DNA from: a virus
Taxonomy: Duplodnaviria > Heunggongvirae > Uroviricota > Caudoviricetes
Length of the DNA stretch: 8,951 bases
Strand: one strand, 5' to 3'
Virus record (IMG/VR): IMGVR_UViG_3300029107_000009
Location: 1-8,951 of that record
The translations under genes and the position numbers were made by a program. Below, piece by piece: positions 1,989 to 8,951 of the stretch; within the stretch, counting starts at the first letter, position 1, and the number at the start of each line of letters is the position of its first letter. The notes beneath the pieces were generated by a model that saw only the letters and a list, made by a program, of their open reading frames with translations, was not told the origin of the DNA and did no database searches.

Positions 1989-2002
1989 GCGGGTGCTTGA
2001 GG
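1989..2002 (+). promoter_or_regulatory. Upstream complementary box of the hok mRNA (fold-back inhibition element, 5' partner)
   Basis: GCGGGTGCTTGAGG (1989-2002) can pair antiparallel with CCTCAACGCACCCGC (2365-2379) just before the 3' terminator: 14 bp with a one-nucleotide bulge. Confidence 0.5.
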
Positions 2003-2037
2003 CTATCTGCCTCGGGCATGAACACCAACGGCAGATA

Positions 2038-2111
2038 GAGAAAAGCCCCAGTTAACATTACGCGTCCTGCAAGACGCTTAACATTAATCTGAGGCCCAAT
2101 CTATGCTTCAC
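2038..2111 (-). ncRNA. Candidate Sok-like antisense RNA (boundaries approximate)
   Basis: Minus-strand -35 TTGCCT (forward 2141-2146) and -10 TAACCT (forward 2118-2123) with a 17-nt spacer. The transcript would be antisense to the mok start codon (2103) and its SD. On the minus strand an outer 7-bp stem (forward 2045-2051 with 2089-2095, one G-U pair that is a C-A mismatch on the plus strand) encloses an inner hairpin (forward 2062-2077) and is followed by UUUUCUC. Confidence 0.3.
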
Positions 2112-2315
2112 AAACGTAGGTTAGCCTCTTACGTGCCGAAAGGCAAGGAGAAGCAGGCTATGAAGCAGCAAAAGGCGATGTTAATCGCCCTGATCGTCAT
2201 CTGTTTAACCGTCATAGTGACGGCACTGGTAACGAGGAAAGACCTCTGCGAGGTACGAATCCGAACCGGCCAGACGGAGGTCGCTGTCTTCACAGCTTAC
2301 GAACCTGAGGAGTAA
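2103..2315 (+). CDS. Mok-like ORF: in-frame 19-codon N-terminal extension of hok
   Basis: 70-aa ORF MLHKRRLASYVPKGKEKQA + Hok sequence, in frame with hokD as in chromosomal mok/hok annotations; GAGG lies 10 nt upstream of ATG 2103. Confidence 0.45.
   Translation: MLHKRRLASYVPKGKEKQAMKQQKAMLIALIVICLTVIVTALVTRKDLCEVRIRTGQTEVAVFTAYEPEE
2160..2315 (+). CDS. hokD: Hok-family type I toxin (HokD/RelF-like, 51 aa)
   Basis: Product MKQQKAMLIALIVICLTVIVTALVTRKDLCEVRIRTGQTEVAVFTAYEPEE matches the Hok/Gef family and my recollection of E. coli HokD (RelF). SD AAGGAG at 9 nt; N-terminal TM helix and conserved Cys. Confidence 0.9.
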   Translation: MKQQKAMLIALIVICLTVIVTALVTRKDLCEVRIRTGQTEVAVFTAYEPEE

Positions 2316-2862: not shown

Positions 2863-3141
2863 ATGGCGCAAAATTCCAGACTACACAATTCTGATAATTC
2901 AGCCGTCTTTGCCAGCAGGCATGGGCGGCGTTCGCGCGTATTTAAAACCGACTGGTACCAACACCCTCCATGCACTGAAGAACAGGCCGAATGGCTGATT
3001 CAGTGCTACCGCAGGCGCGGATACGAGGTTAAAAAAGCCCTTAGCCTCGACTACCGTCACTGGATAATCTCTGTCAGACTGCCTTACTCCGAACGCCCAC
3101 CGCGTCCATCCCGCACGTACCAACAACGGATCTGGAGGTAA
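2863..3141 (+). CDS. Hypothetical protein (92 aa), translationally coupled to the ydfU-like gene
   Basis: ATG 2863 with GGAG at 7 nt; the stop TAA 3139-3141 lies inside the RBS/start region of the next gene. Basic product with no recognised motif. Confidence 0.45.
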   Translation: MAQNSRLHNSDNSAVFASRHGRRSRVFKTDWYQHPPCTEEQAEWLIQCYRRRGYEVKKALSLDYRHWIISVRLPYSERPPRPSRTYQQRIWR

Positions 3142-3142
3142 C

Positions 3143-4192
3143 GTGAGGGTATTACTTCGACCTGTTCTGGTGCCGGAACTCGGGCTGGTGGTCCTTAAGC
3201 CAGGTCGTGAATCCATGCAGGTATTTCACAATCCCCGGGTGCTGGTGGCGCCTGAACCAAAAAGCATGCGCGCTCTGCCGTCAGGACCTGTTCCTGCTGT
3301 TAGCCAGCTGCTGGCAGAGGATAAAACATTACTGCCATTTTTCAGCGACGAACGAGTGATTCGTGCTGCTGGCGGCGCTGGTGCACTGTCTGACTGGCTG
3401 TTGCGCCATGTTAAATCCTGCCAGTGGCCACACGGCGACTATCACCACAGTGAAACCGTCATTCACCGTTATGGCGCTGGCGCGATGGTGTTGTGCTGGC
3501 ACTGCGACAACCAGCTGCGTGACCAGACATCCGAATCACTCGAGCAACTTGCTCATCAAAATCTGTCAGCATGGATGATTGACGTCATACGCCATGCAAT
3601 GAATGGCACGCAGGAGAGGGAGTTATCGCTGGCTGAATTATCCTGGTGGGCGGTCTGCAATCAAGTGGCGGACGCGCTTCCGGAGGCAGTATTACGTCGT
3701 TCTCTGGGGTTACGTGCGGAAAAAATCCGCTCAATGTACCGTGAAAGCGACATCGTACCGGGAGAGCAGACCGCCACCAGCATACTGAAGCAGCGCACAA
3801 AAAATCTTGCGCAGTTGCTTCACACCCACCAGCCACAGAACCCAGCACAGGAAAAGCAGGTGGTCAGCATTGCCGTTGATCCGGAGTCTCCGGAATCTTT
3901 CATGAGGCGACCTAAACGTCGCCGTTGGGTAAATGAGAAATATACGCGCTGGGTGAAGACACAGCCGTGTGCGTGTTGTGGTCAACCAGCCGACGATCCC
4001 CATCACCTGATTGGTCACGGTCAGGGAGGGATGGGAACAAAGGCCCACGATATTTTCACGCTACCGTTGTGCCGGGAACATCACAACGAACTTCATGCGG
4101 ATCCGCTGGCGTTCGAAGAAAAGCATGGTTCTCAGGTTGATTTAATTTTTCGTTTTCTTGATCACGCCTTTGCAACCGGCGTGCTTGGGTAA
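3143..4192 (+). CDS. ydfU: DUF968-family prophage protein (YdfU-like, 349 aa) with a C-terminal Cys/His-rich HNH-like motif
   Basis: GTG 3143 with GGAGG at 4 nt. The 349-aa length and the position upstream of Q match my recollection of Qin YdfU. The C-terminus contains CACCGQPADDPHHLIGHGQGG...LCREHHNELH. Confidence 0.75.
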   Translation: MRVLLRPVLVPELGLVVLKPGRESMQVFHNPRVLVAPEPKSMRALPSGPVPAVSQLLAEDKTLLPFFSDERVIRAAGGAGALSDWLLRHVKSCQWPHGDYHHSETVIHRYGAGAMVLCWHCDNQLRDQTSESLEQLAHQNLSAWMIDVIRHAMNGTQERELSLAELSWWAVCNQVADALPEAVLRRSLGLRAEKIRSMYRESDIVPGEQTATSILKQRTKNLAQLLHTHQPQNPAQEKQVVSIAVDPESPESFMRRPKRRRWVNEKYTRWVKTQPCACCGQPADDPHHLIGHGQGGMGTKAHDIFTLPLCREHHNELHADPLAFEEKHGSQVDLIFRFLDHAFATGVLG

Positions 4193-4204
4193 AAGAGGTT
4201 ACTG

Positions 4205-4564
4205 ATGCGTATAGAGTTTGTTTTGCCTTACCCGCCGACGGTGAATACCTACTGGCGACGTCATGGCAATACGTATTTCATCTCGGAGGCCGGAAAGCGT
4301 TATCGCCATGATGTGGCGCTAATTGTTCGCCAGCAGCGGTTGAAATTAAACCTGTCCGGAAGGCTGGCGATAAAGATTATTGCAGAGCCACCGGATAAGC
4401 GCCGTCGTGACCTGGACAATATCCTGAAAGCACCACTAGATGCGCTGACGCATGCCGGACTACTCATAGACGACGAGCAGTTTGATGAAATCAATATTGT
4501 GCGCGGTCAGCTCGTTCCTGGTGGGCGGCTGGGGATAAAAATCACAGAACTGGAGTGCGCATGA
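4205..4564 (+). CDS. rusA: RusA-type Holliday junction resolvase (119 aa)
   Basis: Product contains PDKRRRDLDN..LDALTHAG, closely resembling the RusA acidic catalytic-core motif (PDRRRRDLDN..FDALTKAG as I recall it). AAGAGG at 6 nt from ATG 4205. Confidence 0.85.
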   Translation: MRIEFVLPYPPTVNTYWRRHGNTYFISEAGKRYRHDVALIVRQQRLKLNLSGRLAIKIIAEPPDKRRRDLDNILKAPLDALTHAGLLIDDEQFDEINIVRGQLVPGGRLGIKITELECA

Positions 4565-5250
4565 ATAACCAGTATTTACAGTTTGTGCGTGAGCAGCTCA
4601 TTATCGCCACCGCTGATTTGAGTGGGGCAACAAAAGGTCAGCTTGAAGCCTGGCAGGAGAATGCCATGTTCGATACAGGGCGTTACAGGCGAAAAAAAAT
4701 CCGGTACCGCGATGAAGTGACTGGAAAAATGATAACGCGGAATAATCAACCAATCCCGGGAAAGCAATCGCTGGCGAAGGGGACGTCAATTCCTCTGGTC
4801 AGTCCGGTTGAGTTTTCGACATCATCGTGGCGGCGGGCTGTTCTGTCTCTTGAAGAACATCATAAAGCCTGGTTGTTGTGGTGTTACAGCGGGAGTATTT
4901 GTTGGGAATATCAGATCGCTATAACACAGTGGGCGTGGAATGAATTTAATACTCAATCCGGTACCAGAAAAATTGCAGGGAAAACGCAGGAACGCCTGAA
5001 AAAATTAATCTGGCTGGCGGCGCAGGCAGTAAAAGCAGAACTTTTTGGTGGGGAAGGTTATGAATACCAGGATCTGGCATTACTGGCGGGAGTGACAACT
5101 AAAAACTGGTCCAAAACATTTACTCGTCACTGGGTTGCAATGAAACACATTTTTCAACGACTGGATAGTGAGGCTTTATTGTTTGTAATGAGAACACGTT
5201 CAAAACAAAAGGCGGCATTTTCAAAGCAAAATGTTGCAAAAGTAGATTGA
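4561..5250 (+). CDS. Putative late-gene antiterminator Q-like protein (229 aa from ATG 4561)
   Basis: ATG 4561 overlaps the rusA stop (ATGA) with GGAG at 5 nt. Lies immediately upstream of a strong promoter plus terminator and the lysis genes, which is the canonical Q position. Assignment is positional; no Q family motif recognised with certainty. Confidence 0.55.
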   Translation: MNNQYLQFVREQLIIATADLSGATKGQLEAWQENAMFDTGRYRRKKIRYRDEVTGKMITRNNQPIPGKQSLAKGTSIPLVSPVEFSTSSWRRAVLSLEEHHKAWLLWCYSGSICWEYQIAITQWAWNEFNTQSGTRKIAGKTQERLKKLIWLAAQAVKAELFGGEGYEYQDLALLAGVTTKNWSKTFTRHWVAMKHIFQRLDSEALLFVMRTRSKQKAAFSKQNVAKVD

Positions 5251-5262
5251 AAGGCATATATT
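5234..5262 (+). promoter_or_regulatory. Candidate late promoter (PR-prime-like), overlapping the 3' end of the Q gene
   Basis: -35 TTGCAA (5234-5239), 17-nt spacer, -10 TATATT (5257-5262). Confidence 0.5.
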
Positions 5263-5316
5263 TCATGCAAATCTGATATTTTGCCGATTTTGTACGTGAT
5301 GGCAAAAGCAAACAAA

Positions 5317-5340
5317 ACCCGCCCACAAGCGGGTTTTTTT
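5317..5340 (+). terminator. Rho-independent terminator (tR-prime-like) about 70 nt downstream of the late promoter
   Basis: ACCCGC-CCACAA-GCGGGT stem-loop followed by TTTTTTT. Confidence 0.75.
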
Positions 5341-5422
5341 GTGCCACTTATCTCGGATAGACATGGTGAATGCGCTGGTGGAGGAAGTAAGGGTGATTTT
5401 TAACCAGGTGATTTTTGAATGC

Positions 5423-5451
5423 TTGCAACATTGATTTCGTAACGTTATTAT
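5423..5451 (+). promoter_or_regulatory. Candidate promoter of the tRNA cluster
   Basis: -35 TTGCAA (5423-5428), 17-nt spacer, -10 TATTAT (5446-5451); AT-rich upstream region; the first tRNA begins 10 nt after the -10. Confidence 0.45.
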
Positions 5452-5460
5452 CCTGCGCCC

Positions 5461-5536
5461 GGCCCTTTAGCTCAGTGGTGAGAGCGAGCGACTCATAATC
5501 GCCAGGTCGCTGGTTCAAATCCAGCAAGGGCCACCA
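5461..5536 (+). tRNA. tRNA with CAU anticodon, ileX/ileZ-like (Ile2 type after lysidine modification, or elongator Met)
   Basis: 76 nt; acceptor GGCCCTT/AAGGGCC; D-arm GCTCAGTGGTGAGAGC; anticodon loop CTCATAA; T-loop TTCAAAT; encoded CCA. Resembles E. coli ileX from memory. Confidence 0.8.
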
Positions 5537-5537
5537 A

Positions 5538-5614
5538 CCGCCACTAGCTCATCAGGAAAGAGCGTCAACCCTTTAAGTTGAGTGTGCGAGGTTCGAGTCC
5601 CCGGTGGCGGTCCA
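5538..5614 (+). tRNA. tRNA-like gene with atypical anticodon loop CCTTTAA (anticodon UUU if canonically numbered, but C at position 33)
   Basis: 77 nt; acceptor CCGCCAC/GTGGCGG; anticodon stem TCAAC/GTTGA; T-loop TTCGAGT with one A-C mismatch in the T-stem; encoded CCA. Confidence 0.55.
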
Positions 5615-5616
5615 GT

Positions 5617-5692
<76 letters not shown>

Positions 5693-5695
5693 TAT

Positions 5696-5770
<75 letters not shown>

Positions 5771-6129
5771 GAGAAACAAGCCTTATTGTATTGCGGCACT
5801 GGCGTATTTTTTTATTACGTGGGAGCAGGTTGTTTTGAAAAAGCATTCTGTTCTCTGGCTATGATTTGAGGCCGGGTGTAGCCTCAGTGCTGATTTTTTT
5901 ACGGCAGCAGAATGGTGCATTATCGGTGGAGGTTTTGTATTTCCTGGCAGGGTCGGTGATGCATCATTCTGGTGTTGTAAAAGCACCGCAGAGGCGTTCC
6001 TCAGTACGAGGGTGGTTTAAAGAGTCGGTTTAGCGGGAAACCACAGTGTCCATACAGAACGGAATACTTCGGGAGGCACCCGACGCCTCGATTATATTAC
6101 AATTAAAAATTCATCCCTTGCATTGACCA

Positions 6130-6155
6130 ACCGCCATATCTGGCGGTTTTTTTTT
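6130..6155 (+). terminator. Strong rho-independent terminator in the non-coding gap
   Basis: ACCGCCA-TATC-TGGCGGT followed by nine T residues. Confidence 0.8.
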
Positions 6156-6400
6156 ATTCCTTTCTCAGAACAAAAAAAGACACGAGCATCCAGGAATACT
6201 CGTGGGACAACGTCCTTTGGATAGCAATTTGCGAGAGGGTGAAAAGTAGCGCGGTCGTCGGATTAAGACCGCGGGACAAAGTCCATGAAGAATAATAAGT
6301 ATTGGCCCCCTTCCGGGGACATGTTCATACTACTAAGCTTCAGAAGTGGTTTAAATACTCAAATTAACCTTAATTTCCGATAAGTCTTATTTCATTTCTT

Positions 6401-6503
6401 TGCGCCACATCTGGCGCGCATCAAATAACGCCACGCAAAGGGCATCTGCGGATGCCGGTGCTTTTGACGGGGTGTTTTTACGGGCCGCTGGTGGCCCTTT
6501 TTT
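6401..6503 (+). promoter_or_regulatory. Structured leader upstream of the holin gene: three consecutive GC hairpins, the last followed by a T-tract
   Basis: Hairpins TGCGCCA-CATC-TGGCGCG (6401-6418), GGCATC-TGCG-GATGCC (6441-6456) and GGGCC-GCTGGT-GGCCC + TTTTTT (6482-6503), directly before the holin RBS. Confidence 0.4.
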
Positions 6504-6522
6504 ATTTACAGGAGAAAAAAGT

Positions 6523-6915
6523 ATGTCTGAACCCTTATCCGGTTCCGGCACGGCTGCGGCGCTCGGTGGGGCGACGGTGTACGGGCTGTTTACCGGAACG
6601 GATTTCGGGATTGTGTTTGGTGCGTTCGCCGGGGCGTTATTTGTGGCAACGATGCCGCAGGCGCTTTCAGCCTGGCGTGTGGCAGCACATTTTCTGGTGT
6701 CGTTCATTATCGGCGTTCTGGGCGCAGAAGTTCTGGCATCCTGGCTGGTAAAGCATACAGGGTTTGACGGTGCACCTGTCGACGCATTGTGTGCAGTACT
6801 GGTGTCAGTGGTGTCGGTGAAGATTCTCTCGTTCATCCACCAGCAGGATATAGCATCACTGGTGTCCGGTCTGTTCTCCCGCCTGCGGGGCGGAGGAGGC
6901 GGCAATGTTAAGTAA
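6523..6915 (+). CDS. Putative holin (130 aa, multi-TM membrane protein)
   Basis: ATG 6523 with AGGAG at 8 nt. Product has several Gly/Ala-rich hydrophobic segments and a charged C-terminus; first gene of a three-gene lysis cassette. Confidence 0.65.
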   Translation: MSEPLSGSGTAAALGGATVYGLFTGTDFGIVFGAFAGALFVATMPQALSAWRVAAHFLVSFIIGVLGAEVLASWLVKHTGFDGAPVDALCAVLVSVVSVKILSFIHQQDIASLVSGLFSRLRGGGGGNVK

Positions 6916-7180
6916 CCTTCCTGGATTGCTGAATGTGGCGTTATGCACGGTTATCGTGCTGACGCTCTTTTTTTATCGTCGCCGTGATTCCAGACATAAA
7001 CCGCTGGTGTCATGGCTGGCCTGGCTGCTGATGCTGCTTTATGCCTTTGCACCACTCAGCTATCTGTGTGGTCGCCCGTTAGCAACGGGCTGGCTGGAAG
7101 TGTTTTTTAACCTGCTGTTCTGCGTGCTGGTAATACGCGCACGCGGGAACGTCACAAAAATCTTTCCATTGTTGAGGTGA
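6905..7180 (+). CDS. Membrane protein of the lysis cassette (91 aa, about three TM segments)
   Basis: ATG 6905 with GGAGGAGG at 5 nt, overlapping the holin stop by 11 nt; hydrophobic product; stop overlaps the endolysin start region. Confidence 0.6.
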   Translation: MLSNLPGLLNVALCTVIVLTLFFYRRRDSRHKPLVSWLAWLLMLLYAFAPLSYLCGRPLATGWLEVFFNLLFCVLVIRARGNVTKIFPLLR

Positions 7181-7182
7181 AT

Positions 7183-7560
7183 ATGTCGGGTAAATTCAGA
7201 TTCAGCCGTCGCAGTGAAAAAAATCTGGAGGGCGTCAAACCACAGCTGGTTGCTGTCGTTCGCCGTGCGCTGGAGCTGACGGAGGTTGATTTCGGTATTA
7301 CGGAAGGCCTGCGCAGTAAGTATCGCCAGAAACAGCTGGTCGCGGAAGGGAAAAGCCAGACCATGAACAGCCGCCACCTGACCGGTGATGCTGTGGATGT
7401 TGTGGCTTATGTTGGCAGCCAGGTGTCATGGGACTGGCCTCTGTACGAGAAAATCGCGCAGGCATTTAAGCAGGCTGCCGCAGAGCTGGGGACTGCCATC
7501 GAATGGGGCGGGGACTGGAAAACACTGAAAGACGGACCTCACTTTCAGTTGAAACGATAA
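7183..7560 (+). CDS. Endolysin, peptidase M15 (VanY / L-alanyl-D-glutamate peptidase-like), 125 aa from ATG 7183 (alternative GTG 7177)
   Basis: Product carries SRHLTGDAVDV, which matches the zinc-binding SxHxxGxAxD signature of M15-type cell-wall peptidases; GAGG upstream; follows the holin-like genes. Confidence 0.75.
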   Translation: MSGKFRFSRRSEKNLEGVKPQLVAVVRRALELTEVDFGITEGLRSKYRQKQLVAEGKSQTMNSRHLTGDAVDVVAYVGSQVSWDWPLYEKIAQAFKQAAAELGTAIEWGGDWKTLKDGPHFQLKR

Positions 7561-7572
7561 GCAAAACAAAAC

Positions 7573-7600
7573 CCCCGCAGCTGGAACAGTCCGGGGTTTT
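7573..7600 (+). terminator. Probable terminator after the endolysin gene
   Basis: CCCCG...CGGGG stem with a 14-nt loop followed by TTTT; weaker than the other terminators in the window. Confidence 0.4.
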
Positions 7601-7831
7601 TAGTTTTCACGCCATGAAAAGGAACAATAAGTTGCAAAACAGCATGAGGTGAGGAAATTGTGAACAGTGAGTACGGGGAAAATCCTCGTGGGAAAGTATA
7701 AAAGATTCTTTTTGAGGTTGTCCATTATGAAAGGTATTGAAGTGGAAACTCCCGCGAGCCTTGATTTGACAAGGGCTGCGGCCTTTGCATGGCGGTCGCT
7801 GTTCTGATTTGGGCTGTGCGTTGGTGGTGAC

Positions 7832-8014
7832 ATGAGCAGAAAACACTGGACACACAGAATGCCTCGAGCGGCGGCGAAAAGGGCACTGGTAGCGATACTG
7901 GTGCCTTTTTTATTGGTGGGCTGCGTTAGCCTGGATAAGGCGCGCCAACTTTTAGATACAGCTTCTCAGGTCTGCAAAATTGTCGACAGTGTCCAGCAGT
8001 GTATGCAGAACTGA
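7832..8014 (+). CDS. Small lipoprotein (60 aa precursor; lipobox LVGC; 30-aa mature peptide with three Cys)
   Basis: ATG 7832; basic N-terminus, hydrophobic stretch LVAILVPFLLVG, then Cys: a signal peptidase II-type pattern. No overlapping Rz-like ORF. Confidence 0.5.
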   Translation: MSRKHWTHRMPRAAAKRALVAILVPFLLVGCVSLDKARQLLDTASQVCKIVDSVQQCMQN

Positions 8015-8041
8015 GCTTTGCATTTGGATGGTGCGAGTAAC

Positions 8042-8067
8042 AAAAAACGGTCAATTGACCGGTTGAT
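8042..8067 (-). terminator. Rho-independent terminator for the minus-strand gene (perfect palindrome, possibly bidirectional)
   Basis: CGGTCAATTGACCG palindrome (8048-8061) followed on the minus strand by UUUUUUG, 12 nt after the minus-strand stop codon. Confidence 0.6.
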
Positions 8068-8073
8068 TAGCGT

Positions 8074-8253
8074 TTAACGTTTGCTGTCTGGAGTTCGTTT
8101 TACAGGTACCCATGTAGCACCCGGCTTTGATGTCGGGGGAGCCGTATGGTTATCAGGAATGGTGGTGTAATTGTTTGTCGTGCCACCACGTGGGCCTTGT
8201 TGACGGTAAACGCCACCATCTTTGCCACTATTTTCACCTGGTTTTAAAGCCAT
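8074..8253 (-). CDS. Hypothetical Gly/Pro/Thr-rich hydrophilic protein (59 aa), opposite-strand moron
   Basis: ATG at 8253 on the minus strand with AGGGA SD at 7 nt; own terminator; product MALKPGENSGKDGGVYRQQGPRGGTTNNYTTIPDNHTAPPTSKPGATWVPVKRTPDSKR. The track's longer ORF to 8322 starts at TTG with no SD. Confidence 0.5.
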   Translation of the reverse strand: MALKPGENSGKDGGVYRQQGPRGGTTNNYTTIPDNHTAPPTSKPGATWVPVKRTPDSKR

Positions 8254-8414
8254 GCTAGTCCCTTTTATTAAAGTCACGATTGTGTGACAAGGTGAGTATT
8301 GGTCGTATAAGTGAAAAGACAAGATGAAATTTTTTCATGAGCCATCTGTTAGTTCATCTTAAGCACATTCTGGAAATGTGAGCTGATATTTACGGGAGTT
8401 AGAGGAAATTAACA

Positions 8415-8765
8415 ATGCCCCTGCGAACCCCAAAAGTCTGCCGTGTTCGCGGTTGCCGCCATACCACGACTGACCCGTCAGGCTACTGCGAAAGCCACAA
8501 AAGCGAAGGCTGGAAGCAATACAAACCTGGACAATCCCGTCATCAGCGCGGCTACGGTTCGAAGTGGGACAGTATCCGCGTGCGCATATTGAAGCGTGAC
8601 AAAGGCCTGTGTCAGTTATGTCTGCGTGCTGGTGTGGTGCGTGAGGCGAAAACCGTTGACCACATCATCCCTAAAGCGCATGGCGGCACTGATGCCGACA
8701 GTAATCTGCAGAGTCTGTGCTGGCCGTGTCATAAGGCGAAGACGGCCCGTGAATGGCTGAAGTAA
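8415..8765 (+). CDS. HNH endonuclease (116 aa), packaging-associated type
   Basis: Product has CxxC...HK...DHIIPKAHGGTDADSNLQSLCWPCHKAK, a classic HNH motif. GAGGAA SD. Sits immediately upstream of the terminase small subunit, as in HK97-like phages. Confidence 0.85.
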   Translation: MPLRTPKVCRVRGCRHTTTDPSGYCESHKSEGWKQYKPGQSRHQRGYGSKWDSIRVRILKRDKGLCQLCLRAGVVREAKTVDHIIPKAHGGTDADSNLQSLCWPCHKAKTAREWLK

Positions 8766-8791
8766 GAACCAGTTCCCACTGCCAGAGGGGA

Positions 8792-8851
8792 GGGGCGGGT
8801 CAAATCCCTGTGACCTGACGTCTTCCGGACTGCCCGCCCCATCGTTTTTTT
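8792..8851 (+). repeat. GC-rich inverted repeat (GGGGCGGG ... CCCGCCCC) followed by a T-tract; candidate cos/packaging element or terminator
   Basis: 8-bp perfect inverted repeat (8792-8799 with 8833-8840) separated by 33 bp, then ATCGTTTTTTT; lies between the HNH and terminase genes. Confidence 0.4.
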
Positions 8852-8890
8852 ATACCCGCGAAAAATGAAATTTAACCAGGAGTGCCGCAT

Positions 8891-8951
8891 ATGGCTGGAA
8901 CGGCGGGGCGTTCCGGGCGTCGCCCCAAGCCAACGGCGCGCAAGGCGCTGG
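8891..8951 (+). CDS. Terminase small subunit, N-terminal fragment (runs off the window)
   Basis: ATG 8891 with AGGAG at 8 nt; N-terminus MAGTAGRSGRRPKPTARKAL is typical of P27-family small terminase subunits; follows the HNH gene. Confidence 0.7.
   Translation, partial: MAGTAGRSGRRPKPTARKAL

What the first reader, a model, noticed from the sequence alone, without database searches (positions are those of the whole stretch)
6523..8014. Lysis cassette with no recognisable Rz/Rz1 spanin pair, followed by a lone short lipoprotein
The cassette is holin, a three-TM membrane protein and an M15 peptidase endolysin, closed by a terminator. No ORF encodes an Rz-like inner-membrane spanin with an embedded Rz1. 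Instead, after a 270-bp gap there is a separate 60-aa lipoprotein precursor (lipobox LVGC) whose 30-aa mature part has three cysteines and is not proline-rich like lambda Rz1. It could be a minimal outer-membrane spanin component, a superinfection-exclusion lipoprotein, or an unrelated moron.
Basis: partly seen in the sequence, partly recalled or inferred. Interest (0 to 1): 0.5.

Follow-up and report, generated by a model that had tools for sequence, protein, structure and literature searches.

The report
Lone lipoprotein in the phage spanin slot
A conserved 60-residue lipoprotein gene sits exactly where phiP27-like prophages of E. coli and its relatives would normally carry the two-protein Rz/Rz1 spanin that breaks the outer membrane, and it has no inner-membrane partner, so it may break the outer membrane on its own; no experiment has tested this.

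Summary
Window 6523-8014 carries a Phage_holin_8 holin, a 3-TM holin, an M15_4 endolysin and a 60-aa lipoprotein (lipobox LVGC, 30-aa Pro-free mature part, three Cys). No Rz/Rz1-like pair is present.

Two corrections:
- The "270-bp gap" is a small membrane-protein gene broken here by a 10-bp deletion.
- In many relatives the lipoprotein gene starts 6-14 nt after the endolysin stop, so it belongs to the cassette.

The gene is real: about 118 protein clusters and dN/dS about 0.25. It is always the last gene of the lysis module, whichever holin or endolysin precedes it.

In Stx-phage relatives the same small membrane gene ends in ...GGTGGTGAnATG followed by Rz/Rz1; here the identical junction is followed by the lipoprotein. 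Of 80 loci anchored on that gene:
- 55 have an intact lipoprotein and no Rz.
- 23 have Rz, with the lipoprotein absent or decayed.
- None has both intact.

Kongari et al. 2018 already listed the phiP27 homologue as an o-spanin. Their paired "i-spanin" is an antisense shadow ORF found in 3 of 5426 E. coli genomes.

Best reading: a spanin-slot lysis lipoprotein that works without a phage i-spanin. The mechanism is inferred only.

The parts
6523..6915 (+). Holin, Phage_holin_8 family, 130 aa
   Evidence: PF16931 E 2.8e-22 and phrog_198 E 7.8e-43.
6905..7180 (+). Second holin or antiholin, 3-TM Phage_holin_3_7 family, 91 aa. It overlaps the first holin by 11 nt.
   Evidence: PF05449 E 1.2e-21 and phrog_217 E 1.5e-38.
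7177..7560 (+). Endolysin, Peptidase_M15_4. The likely start is ATG 7183, after GAGGTG. It has no signal or SAR segment.
   Evidence: PF13539 E 1.5e-12 and phrog_465 E 1.7e-75. Relatives are annotated as 125 aa.
7571..7600 (.). Hairpin with flanking A- and T-runs (bidirectional terminator-like). It is conserved in relatives as part of the 'small gene + lipoprotein' module.
   Evidence: Terminator scan, stem 7581-7594; alignment A2. Read-through by Q-antiterminated late transcription is inferred from lambdoid biology, not shown.
7667..7830 (+). Decayed small membrane-protein gene (phrog_4493/1115 family). The ORF 7667-7807 has lost its C-terminal TMD through a 10-bp deletion between 7789 and 7790. 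The TMD remnant (AVAVLIWAVRWW*) is out of frame at 7791-7830.
   Evidence: Alignment A2 against L002, L015, L027 and L079. PHROG hits. The intact gene shows mostly synonymous differences between contexts.
7819..7834 (+). Junction GTTGGTGGTGAcATG: stop of the small gene, an SD-like GGTGG, and the start codon. The same junction precedes Rz in GER2 and in the HUSEC2011 Stx2a prophage.
   Evidence: Alignment A6; upstream sequences in all architectures.
7832..7921 (+). Lipoprotein signal peptide. It has a long basic n-region (MSRKHWTHRMPRAAAKR) and an h-region plus lipobox ALVAILVPFLLVG. It is the most conserved part of the protein.
   Evidence: Alignments A1 and A5. dN/dS is 0.25 for the n-region and 0.09 for the h-region plus lipobox. 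Against divergent homologues pN is about 0.1 at pS about 0.5.
7922..8014 (+). Mature lipoprotein, 30 aa plus stop. The acylated Cys31 is at 7922-7924; +2 is Val, which predicts outer-membrane sorting. It is a predicted amphipathic helix. Cys48 (7973-7975) and Cys57 (8000-8002) are invariant. There is no Pro.
   Evidence: AF2 single helix, pLDDT 64; hydrophobic moment about 0.6 over 18 residues. Similarity to all relatives ends exactly at 8014.

Best explanation
ORF 7832-8014 encodes a genuine late-expressed phage lysis protein. It is a small outer-membrane lipoprotein that takes the place of the Rz/Rz1 spanin in phiP27-type lysis cassettes and has no phage-encoded inner-membrane subunit.

Proposed sequence of events:
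1. It is translated from the Q-dependent late transcript, coupled to the upstream gene through a GGTGG...ATG junction.
2. It is exported, acylated at Cys31 and cleaved by signal peptidase II.
3. It is sorted to the inner leaflet of the outer membrane, because +2 is Val, Ala or Thr and not Asp.
4. The 29-residue amphipathic helix, with its two invariant Cys (C-x8/9-C), waits there, probably as disulfide-linked oligomers.
5. When the holins and the M15 endolysin remove the peptidoglycan, it destabilises the outer membrane or fuses it to the inner membrane, and virions are released.

What is shown:
- The gene is real and under purifying selection.
- It has lipoprotein features.
- It is the invariant last gene of the lysis module.
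- It occupies the Rz/Rz1 junction and is mutually exclusive with Rz/Rz1.
- No i-spanin is present.

What is inferred: late expression, outer-membrane localisation, disulfide oligomers, and the membrane-disrupting activity itself.
For: 1. Real gene. There are 118 clusters, and only 23 hits among 1.84 billion representatives, all of them short lipoproteins. F26, G30, C31, L34, C48 and C57 are invariant. dN/dS is about 0.25. An SD-like motif precedes the first ATG everywhere.

2. Lysis linkage.
- It lies on the same strand, 6 or 14 nt after the M15 endolysin, or 1 nt after a small TM gene.
- It also follows a GH108 endolysin, and in other loci an inserted antirepressor gene with an ATGA overlap.
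- The holins vary: Phage_holin_8 plus Phage_holin_3_7, Phage_holin_3_1, or others.
- L005 and L006 have minimal three-gene cassettes: holin, endolysin, lipoprotein.

3. Slot equivalence. The small TM gene ends in GTTGGTGGTGAnATG and is followed by Rz/Rz1 in GER2, HUSEC2011 and PhiR12_2. Here and in L015 the same junction is followed by the lipoprotein.

4. Exclusivity.
- None of 90 lipoprotein loci has an Rz or Rz1 homologue within 4 kb.
- Of 80 loci anchored on the small TM gene, 55 have an intact lipoprotein without Rz, 17 have Rz without the lipoprotein, and 6 have Rz plus a lipoprotein copy with three in-frame stops. None has both intact.

5. No partner.
- No type-II membrane ORF is present in the window or in representative loci.
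- phiP27 and phiSTEC1575-Stx2k have no annotated spanin and no other small lipoprotein. The only membrane proteins they share are the two holins, the lipoprotein and the signal peptides of the two Shiga-toxin subunits.
- The published phiP27 'i-spanin' is absent from 349 of 352 lipoprotein-carrying E. coli genomes. It is antisense to a conserved 90-aa gene, and its frame is broken in that gene's homologues.

6. The invariant periplasmic Cys pair recalls the Cys requirement reported for spanins (PMC6139136).
Against: - There is no experiment on any family member.
- There is no detectable homology to any known spanin. The weak hits (phrog_1275 E 0.066; NF037950 15.5 bits against a cut-off of 100) vanish when the signal peptide or the mature part is scanned alone.
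- A 30-aa mature part cannot span the periplasm, and lambda Rz1 alone is inactive (established knowledge). A new mode of action must therefore be assumed.
- The region distal to a lysis cassette is also a classic moron site (lambda bor).
- The exclusivity counts come from related prophage lineages, so they represent few independent events.
- Spanins are dispensable under some laboratory conditions, so these phages could simply lack the function.
- The AF2 model is of low confidence (pLDDT 64).
Confidence: 0.5

Rival explanations
1. It is an ordinary o-spanin subunit of a two-component spanin whose inner-membrane partner has not been recognised. Candidates are a non-canonical phage protein, such as the small tail-anchored TM protein or one of the holins, or a host periplasm-spanning inner-membrane protein.
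For: Kongari et al. list phiP27 as a 'separated' two-component spanin. They also note that type-I or other topologies could serve as i-spanins (PMC6139136). A small TM gene abuts the lipoprotein gene in most loci. An invariant Cys pair is present.
Against: - The published i-spanin is an antisense shadow ORF, present in 3 of 5426 genomes.
- The small TM gene is absent from the 6-nt and 14-nt architectures, is frameshifted in the window, and also occurs upstream of a complete Rz/Rz1.
- The holin type varies among loci.
- phiP27 and phiSTEC1575 share no membrane-anchored protein other than the two holins and the lipoprotein; the two secreted Shiga-toxin subunits are also flagged, through their signal peptides.
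- A host partner cannot be tested here.
Confidence: 0.17
2. It is not a lysis protein. It is a moron or superinfection-exclusion lipoprotein (Cor-, Llp- or Bor-like in role) that happens to sit at the distal end of the lysis module.
For: The region between lysis genes and terminase is a known moron hot spot. In this window a minus-strand moron lies right next to it at 8074-8253. The protein is small and has no functional annotation. Some loci carry a terminator between the endolysin and the lipoprotein module.
Against: - No Pfam, PHROG, NCBIfam or PADLOC hit to exclusion or defence families.
- No sigma-70 promoter consensus on the + strand.
- It is co-oriented with the endolysin or small gene and starts 1-14 nt after it.
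- GC is 0.51, like the cassette.
- It is decayed or absent exactly where Rz/Rz1 is present. A host-benefit moron has no reason to be.
- It is not located near tail or receptor-binding genes, as cor and llp are (established knowledge).
Confidence: 0.18
3. It is a colicin-lysis-protein-like (BRP-like) or entericidin-like small lipoprotein. It permeabilises the envelope indirectly, for example by activating outer-membrane phospholipase A. Its unusually conserved signal peptide would act as a second, stable, membrane-active product.
For: It falls in the same size class (60-aa precursor, 30-aa mature). The signal peptide, including a basic 17-residue n-region, is more conserved than the mature part. 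That recalls the functional stable signal peptides of BRPs (recalled from the colicin literature, not tested here).
Against: No hit to PF02402 (Lysis_col) or to the entericidin family at E<=1. The mature part is helical and contains Cys, unlike BRPs. There is no colicin context.
Confidence: 0.1

Closest known systems
phiP27 'o-spanin' in the spanin census of Kongari et al. 2018 (PMC6139136; SpaninDB, separated two-component class, singleton family)
   Same: It is the same protein family: 83% identity to the window protein, 51/60 aa, 30-aa mature part, at coordinates 20706-20861 of NC_003356. It has the same position after the holin-holin-M15 cassette.
   Different: The census paired it with a 64-aa TTG-start 'i-spanin' at 20348-20542. 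That ORF lies in a phiP27-specific insert found in 3 of 5426 E. coli genomes. It is antisense to a conserved 90-aa gene and is not conserved. The window and nearly all relatives have no such ORF.
Lambda Rz1 and other o-spanins of two-component spanins
   Same: It is an SPII lipoprotein predicted to sort to the outer membrane. It is the last gene of the lysis cassette and has conserved periplasmic Cys. It occupies the same junction as Rz/Rz1 in related Stx phages.
   Different: There is no i-spanin. The mature part is 30 aa, helical and Pro-free, whereas Rz1 is 40 aa with 10 Pro. The gene is not embedded in another gene. There is no sequence similarity.
Unimolecular spanin gp11 of phage T1
   Same: It is a single gene with an N-terminal lipoprotein signal at the end of a lysis cassette.
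   Different: It has no C-terminal TMD and cannot bridge the two membranes. It has 60 aa against about 131. The NF037950 score is 15.5 bits against a cut-off of 100.
Disruptin gp28 of phage phiKT (bioRxiv 10.1101/515445)
   Same: It would be a small amphipathic single-component substitute for a spanin.
   Different: gp28 is a cationic peptide. This protein is acylated and outer-membrane-tethered by prediction, and net charge across the family is -4 to +3.
Colicin lysis proteins (BRPs, PF02402)
   Same: They are very small lipoproteins that cause envelope permeabilisation. A functional role for the signal peptide is plausible here too.
   Different: No HMM match, a different composition, and a phage lysis-cassette context.

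Membership tests
o-spanin of a two-component spanin | N-terminal signal peptidase II signal with a lipobox Cys | tested here: met
   L-V-G-C fits [LVI][ASTVI][GAS]C. It follows a basic n-region and a 13-residue h-region. G30 and C31 are invariant in 26 sequences. This is pattern-based; no LipoP run and no lipidation experiment.
o-spanin of a two-component spanin | Outer-membrane sorting (no Asp at +2) | tested here: met
   +2 is Val, Ala or Thr in nearly all aligned members; two representatives from the profile search carry Gly or Glu. Localisation itself is not testable here.
o-spanin of a two-component spanin | Cognate i-spanin gene (type II N-in/C-out membrane protein with a periplasmic domain), embedded, overlapping or adjacent | tested here: not met
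   None in the window, none in representative loci of each architecture, and no Rz homologue in 90 loci. None is shared between two complete phages. The published phiP27 candidate is refuted.
o-spanin of a two-component spanin | Location in, or at the end of, the lysis cassette | tested here: met
o-spanin of a two-component spanin | Periplasmic cysteine(s) for intermolecular disulfides | tested here: met
   C48 and C57 are invariant. Disulfide formation itself is not testable here.
o-spanin of a two-component spanin | Sequence membership in a known o-spanin family | tested here: not met
   Only phrog_1275 at E 0.066, which is lost when the halves are scanned separately. Kongari et al. class it as a singleton.
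o-spanin of a two-component spanin | Complements a lambda RzamRz1am lysis defect together with its partner | not testable with these tools
   This requires an experiment.
Unimolecular spanin (T1 gp11 type) | [quoted passage not shown] | tested here: not met
   The lipobox is present. The C-terminus (…VDSVQQCMQN) is polar, and no TMD lies after residue 31. NF037950 scores 15.5 bits against a cut-off of 100.
Colicin lysis protein / BRP (PF02402) | Match to the Lysis_col profile | tested here: not met
   No Pfam family at E<=1.
Cor / Llp-type superinfection-exclusion lipoproteins | Sequence match to an exclusion family, with the gene next to tail or receptor-binding genes | tested here: not met
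   No such hit in PHROGs, Pfam, NCBIfam or PADLOC. The gene is always in the lysis module. Exclusion activity itself was not tested.
Disruptin (phiKT gp28 type) | Cationic amphipathic peptide | tested here: not met
   Net charge of the mature part is 0 in the window and -4 to +3 across the family. An SPII signal is present.
phrog_7528 (unknown function) | Full-length match to the profile | tested here: met
   E 1.1e-34, residues 1-60 on profile positions 1-60 of 60.

The most novel reading that the evidence does not exclude
The family would be a further class of phage outer-membrane disruptor: a single-gene lipoprotein with no transmembrane domain and only 30 mature residues that does the spanin's job alone.

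One sub-variant would explain why the signal peptide is the most conserved part. Slowly processed precursor stays anchored in the inner membrane by its basic, invariant signal peptide, in i-spanin topology. It then pairs through the amphipathic helix and the Cys pair with mature copies in the outer membrane. One gene would thus supply both ends of a homotypic bridge once the peptidoglycan is gone.
Probability: 0.33. Interest if true: 0.7.

Novelty: new variant of a known kind. Interest (0 to 1): 0.52.

Why it matters
Outer-membrane disruption is the least understood step of phage lysis. About 13% of phages of Gram-negative hosts have no recognisable spanin (PMC6139136), and only one alternative, disruptin, has been described.

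This family is present in 352 of 5426 complete E. coli genomes. It is also found in Stx2e and Stx2k converting phages, where lysis controls toxin release. It is small and easy to handle genetically, and a standard lambda RzamRz1am complementation assay would test it directly.

If it works alone, it sets a lower limit on what is needed to breach the outer membrane, and it could be used as an outer-membrane-permeabilising tool. The analysis also corrects a published two-component assignment and several mis-annotations.

Tried and rejected
- Pfam, NCBIfam and PADLOC scans of the lipoprotein gave nothing above threshold. The weak spanin hits (phrog_1275, NF037950) disappeared when the signal peptide and the mature part were scanned separately, so I do not count them as homology.
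- A profile search of 1.84 billion representatives found only the same narrow family. The PDB sequence search found nothing.
- AF2 gave one long low-confidence helix (pLDDT 64), so a fold search was not worth running.
- Rfam found no RNA family in 7450-8450. A possible minus-strand transcript between the promoter-like site at 7724-7695 and the hairpin does not fold better than shuffles (z -1.2).
- I rejected four candidate partners:
  - the 72-aa acidic gene that overlaps the lipoprotein stop in L003 and L004: no TMD and not conserved elsewhere;
  - the small TM protein: absent or broken in many loci, and also found with a complete Rz/Rz1;
  - the holins: they vary among loci;
  - Kongari's phiP27 i-spanin: an antisense shadow ORF.
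- I rejected Met10 as the start. It is not conserved, and the SD-like motif precedes Met1.
- The source organism could not be identified. No complete E. coli genome matches 7561-8100 better than about 92%.
Full report
**What is in the window**

The window is the late region of a phiP27-like lambdoid prophage of an enterobacterium. In order it carries:
- a NinG-like gene, RusA and a Q-like gene;
- four tRNA genes;
- a Phage_holin_8 holin at 6523-6915;
- a 3-TM Phage_holin_3_7 holin at 6905-7180;
- an M15_4 endolysin at 7177/7183-7560;
- a hairpin with a T-run at about 7571-7600;
- the 60-aa ORF at 7832-8014;
- a minus-strand 59-aa gene;
- an HNH endonuclease at 8415-8765.

Megablast finds the cassette in phiP27 at 93.6% identity, in phiSTEC1575-Stx2k, and in 648 of 5426 complete E. 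coli genomes. Similarity to every relative stops exactly at 8014, the last base of the lipoprotein stop codon.

The ORF reads MSRKHWTHRMPRAAAKRALVAILVPFLLVGC|VSLDKARQLLDTASQVCKIVDSVQQCMQN.
- It has a consensus lipobox.
- +2 is Val.
- The mature part is 30 residues, with three Cys and no Pro.

Nothing in 6400-8400 on either strand looks like an Rz-type protein.

**It is a real gene**

- It matches phrog_7528 over its full length (E 1e-34).
- It has 118 homologous 90%-identity clusters, in E. coli, Salmonella, Citrobacter and Enterobacter. A related locus was also found in Lelliottia.
- A profile search of 1.84 billion representatives finds only 23 proteins, almost all short lipoproteins of the same design.
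- F26, G30, C31, L34, C48 and C57 are invariant.
- Over 43 distinct gene sequences, dN/dS is 0.25 in the n-region, 0.09 in the h-region plus lipobox, and 0.26 in the mature part.
- Against the most divergent members, the signal peptide has pN about 0.1 at pS about 0.5, and the mature part has pN about 0.4. The signal peptide, including the odd basic n-region RKHWTHRxPR, is therefore the most constrained part.
- An SD-like GGTGG, AGGTG or GAGGTG precedes the first ATG in every architecture. Met10 is not conserved, so the 60-aa form is the product.

**The gap is not a gap**

Relatives encode a 50-60-aa protein (phrog_4493/1115) in this interval. It has a basic N-terminus and a C-terminal TMD (…AAAFAIRLVAVAVLIWAVRWW*). 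Its stop is one base before the lipoprotein ATG. In the window a 10-bp deletion between 7789 and 7790 frameshifts it and removes the TMD.

**Context across the family**

The lipoprotein gene is always the last gene of the lysis module, on the same strand. The arrangements seen are:
- 6 nt after an M15 endolysin (L004-L006);
- 14 nt after an M15 endolysin (many IMG/VR loci);
- 1 nt after the small TM gene;
- after a GH108 endolysin (L009, L010, L015, L024, L083);
- overlapping (ATGA) an inserted antirepressor gene (L003, L007).

The holins also differ: Phage_holin_8 plus Phage_holin_3_7, Phage_holin_3_1, or others. L005 and L006 are three-gene cassettes: holin, endolysin, lipoprotein.

**It occupies the Rz/Rz1 slot**

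The same small TM gene lies between the lysozyme and a canonical Rz with embedded Rz1 in three relatives: phage PhiR12_2, phage GER2, and the Stx2a prophage of E. coli O104:H4 HUSEC2011.

A DNA alignment shows that the small gene is homologous in both contexts, with mostly synonymous differences, up to GTTGGTGGTGAnATG. After that point the sequence is Rz in one set and the lipoprotein in the other.

| Loci anchored on the small TM gene (80 IMG/VR loci) | Count |
|---|---|
| Intact lipoprotein, no Rz | 55 |
| Degenerate lipoprotein, no Rz | 2 |
| Rz, no lipoprotein | 17 |
| Rz plus a lipoprotein copy with three in-frame stops, 1.2 kb downstream | 6 |
| Both intact | 0 |

The decayed copies were checked by translation. 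None of 90 lipoprotein-anchored loci has an Rz or Rz1 homologue within 4 kb. These counts come from related prophages and so reflect few independent events.

**No partner**

- Neither phiP27 nor phiSTEC1575-Stx2k has an annotated spanin, although they have different virion modules.
- A lipobox scan of all reading frames finds no other small lipoprotein in either genome.
- The only membrane proteins the two genomes share are the two holins and the lipoprotein, apart from the Stx signal peptides.

**Relation to the literature**

Kongari et al. 2018 already list phiP27 as a 'separated' two-component spanin. Both subunits are singletons, and the pair has the shortest combined periplasmic length in their set: 62 residues, made up of a 32-aa i-spanin part and a 30-aa o-spanin part (PMC6139136). 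Their o-spanin (20706-20861) is the homologue of the window ORF.

Their i-spanin (20348-20542, TTG start, 64 aa) does not stand up:
- It lies in an insert found in only 3 of 5426 E. coli genomes, against 352 with the lipoprotein.
- It matches no family, and it is antisense to a 90-aa ORF that matches phrog_36812 at E 5e-20.
- That 90-aa protein has homologues of 62-78% identity and constant length in Salmonella and Serratia prophages, where it is an opposite-strand moron.
- In those homologues the antisense frame is broken by stops.

The two-component assignment is therefore not supported. The same paper notes 31 genomes with a lipoprotein but no linked i-spanin, and leaves them unexplained.

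**Mechanism**

What the data show is position, conservation and exclusivity. What the protein does is inferred.
- The mature part is predicted helical (AF2 gives one helix, pLDDT 64).
- It is amphipathic, with a hydrophobic moment of about 0.5-0.6 over 18 residues.
- Cys positions are conserved at 1, 18 and 27/28.
- Net charge varies from -4 to +3, so it is not a cationic disruptin-like peptide.
- Thirty residues cannot bridge the periplasm.

I propose that it acts from the outer membrane after the peptidoglycan is removed. The unusually conserved signal peptide suggests an extra role, such as a retained precursor or a stable signal peptide as in colicin lysis proteins. That is speculation.

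**Rivals**

- An unrecognised phage or host partner (0.17).
- A non-lysis moron or exclusion lipoprotein (0.18). This is disfavoured by tight coupling to the preceding gene, the lack of a promoter consensus, cassette-like GC, the absence of exclusion-family hits, and decay exactly where Rz/Rz1 is present.
- A BRP-like indirect mechanism (0.10; no PF02402 hit).

**Verdict**

- The gene is already catalogued as a putative o-spanin, but its lone status is a new variant that a standard complementation assay can test directly.

Noticed in passing
window 7667-7830 (intact in L002 3705-3878, L015 3826-3999, L094 1630-1782, L093 2501-2683): A family of 50-60-aa tail-anchored membrane proteins (phrog_4493/1115) sits between the endolysin and the outer-membrane-disruption gene, which is either Rz/Rz1 or the lipoprotein, in many E. 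coli prophages including Stx phages. It is under purifying selection (mostly synonymous differences) and has no known function. In the window a 10-bp deletion breaks it. A second small TM gene (phrog_4906) follows it in L024 and L093.
   Followed up: partly
window 1991-2315: A hok/sok-type type I toxin-antitoxin locus lies in the nin region. Rfam sok scores 113 bits at 1991-2165, and a Hok-like ORF (MKQQKAMLIALIVICLTVIVTALVTRKDLCEVRIRTGQTEVAVFTAYEPEE) lies at about 2160-2315.
   Followed up: no
window 8048-8414: A minus-strand 59-aa gene at 8074-8253 (phrog_3202, unknown function, Gly/Pro/Thr-rich) has its own terminator hairpin at 8048-8061 and an AT-rich upstream region (8254-8414, GC 0.36). 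It looks like a moron inserted right after the conserved lysis module. It is absent from all relatives examined.
   Followed up: partly
L001 3749-4021 (phiP27 20332-20604, minus strand): This is a conserved 90-aa protein (phrog_36812; homologues in Salmonella and Serratia prophages) and it is unannotated in phiP27 RefSeq. RefSeq L32 (20630-20785) is in the wrong frame relative to the real lipoprotein gene (20673/20706-20861). The lipoprotein is also unannotated in vB_Apl-pPE4 and in some E. coli RefSeq genomes.
   Followed up: yes
window 7695-7724 (minus strand) with hairpin 7571-7600: The only sigma-70-like site in 6000-8951 (TGGACA-18-TATACT, 10 of 12) points antisense, towards a hairpin that has U-runs on both strands. 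That would give a minus-strand transcript of about 110 nt opposite the small gene's 5' region. There is no Rfam match and no unusual folding energy.
   Followed up: partly
PP818812.1 (hits H4, H47): 'Actinobacillus phage vB_Apl-pPE4' carries a lysis cassette about 90% identical in DNA to E. coli prophages, including the lipoprotein at 86.7% amino-acid identity. That is unexpected for a Pasteurellaceae host, and the host assignment may deserve a check.
   Followed up: no
window 5461-5770 and 8415-8765: Four tRNA genes (Met-CAT, Lys-TTT, Thr-TGT, Gly-TCC) lie upstream of the lysis cassette, where related phages carry stx or other toxin genes. An HNH endonuclease lies just before the terminase region.
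   Followed up: no
L100 (SerU-LTIIb, KU052038.1) 3108-5732: In the LT-IIb prophage the holin-holin-GH108 cassette is followed directly by the eltIIb toxin genes. Neither a lipoprotein nor an Rz is annotated, so the toxin genes occupy the position of the outer-membrane-disruption gene.
   Followed up: no
L009 3456-4168: In one Citrobacter braakii locus the GH108 endolysin reading frame runs on into the lipoprotein region. The lipoprotein frame there has ATT in place of ATG and a shortened n-region. It is probably a decayed copy.
   Followed up: no
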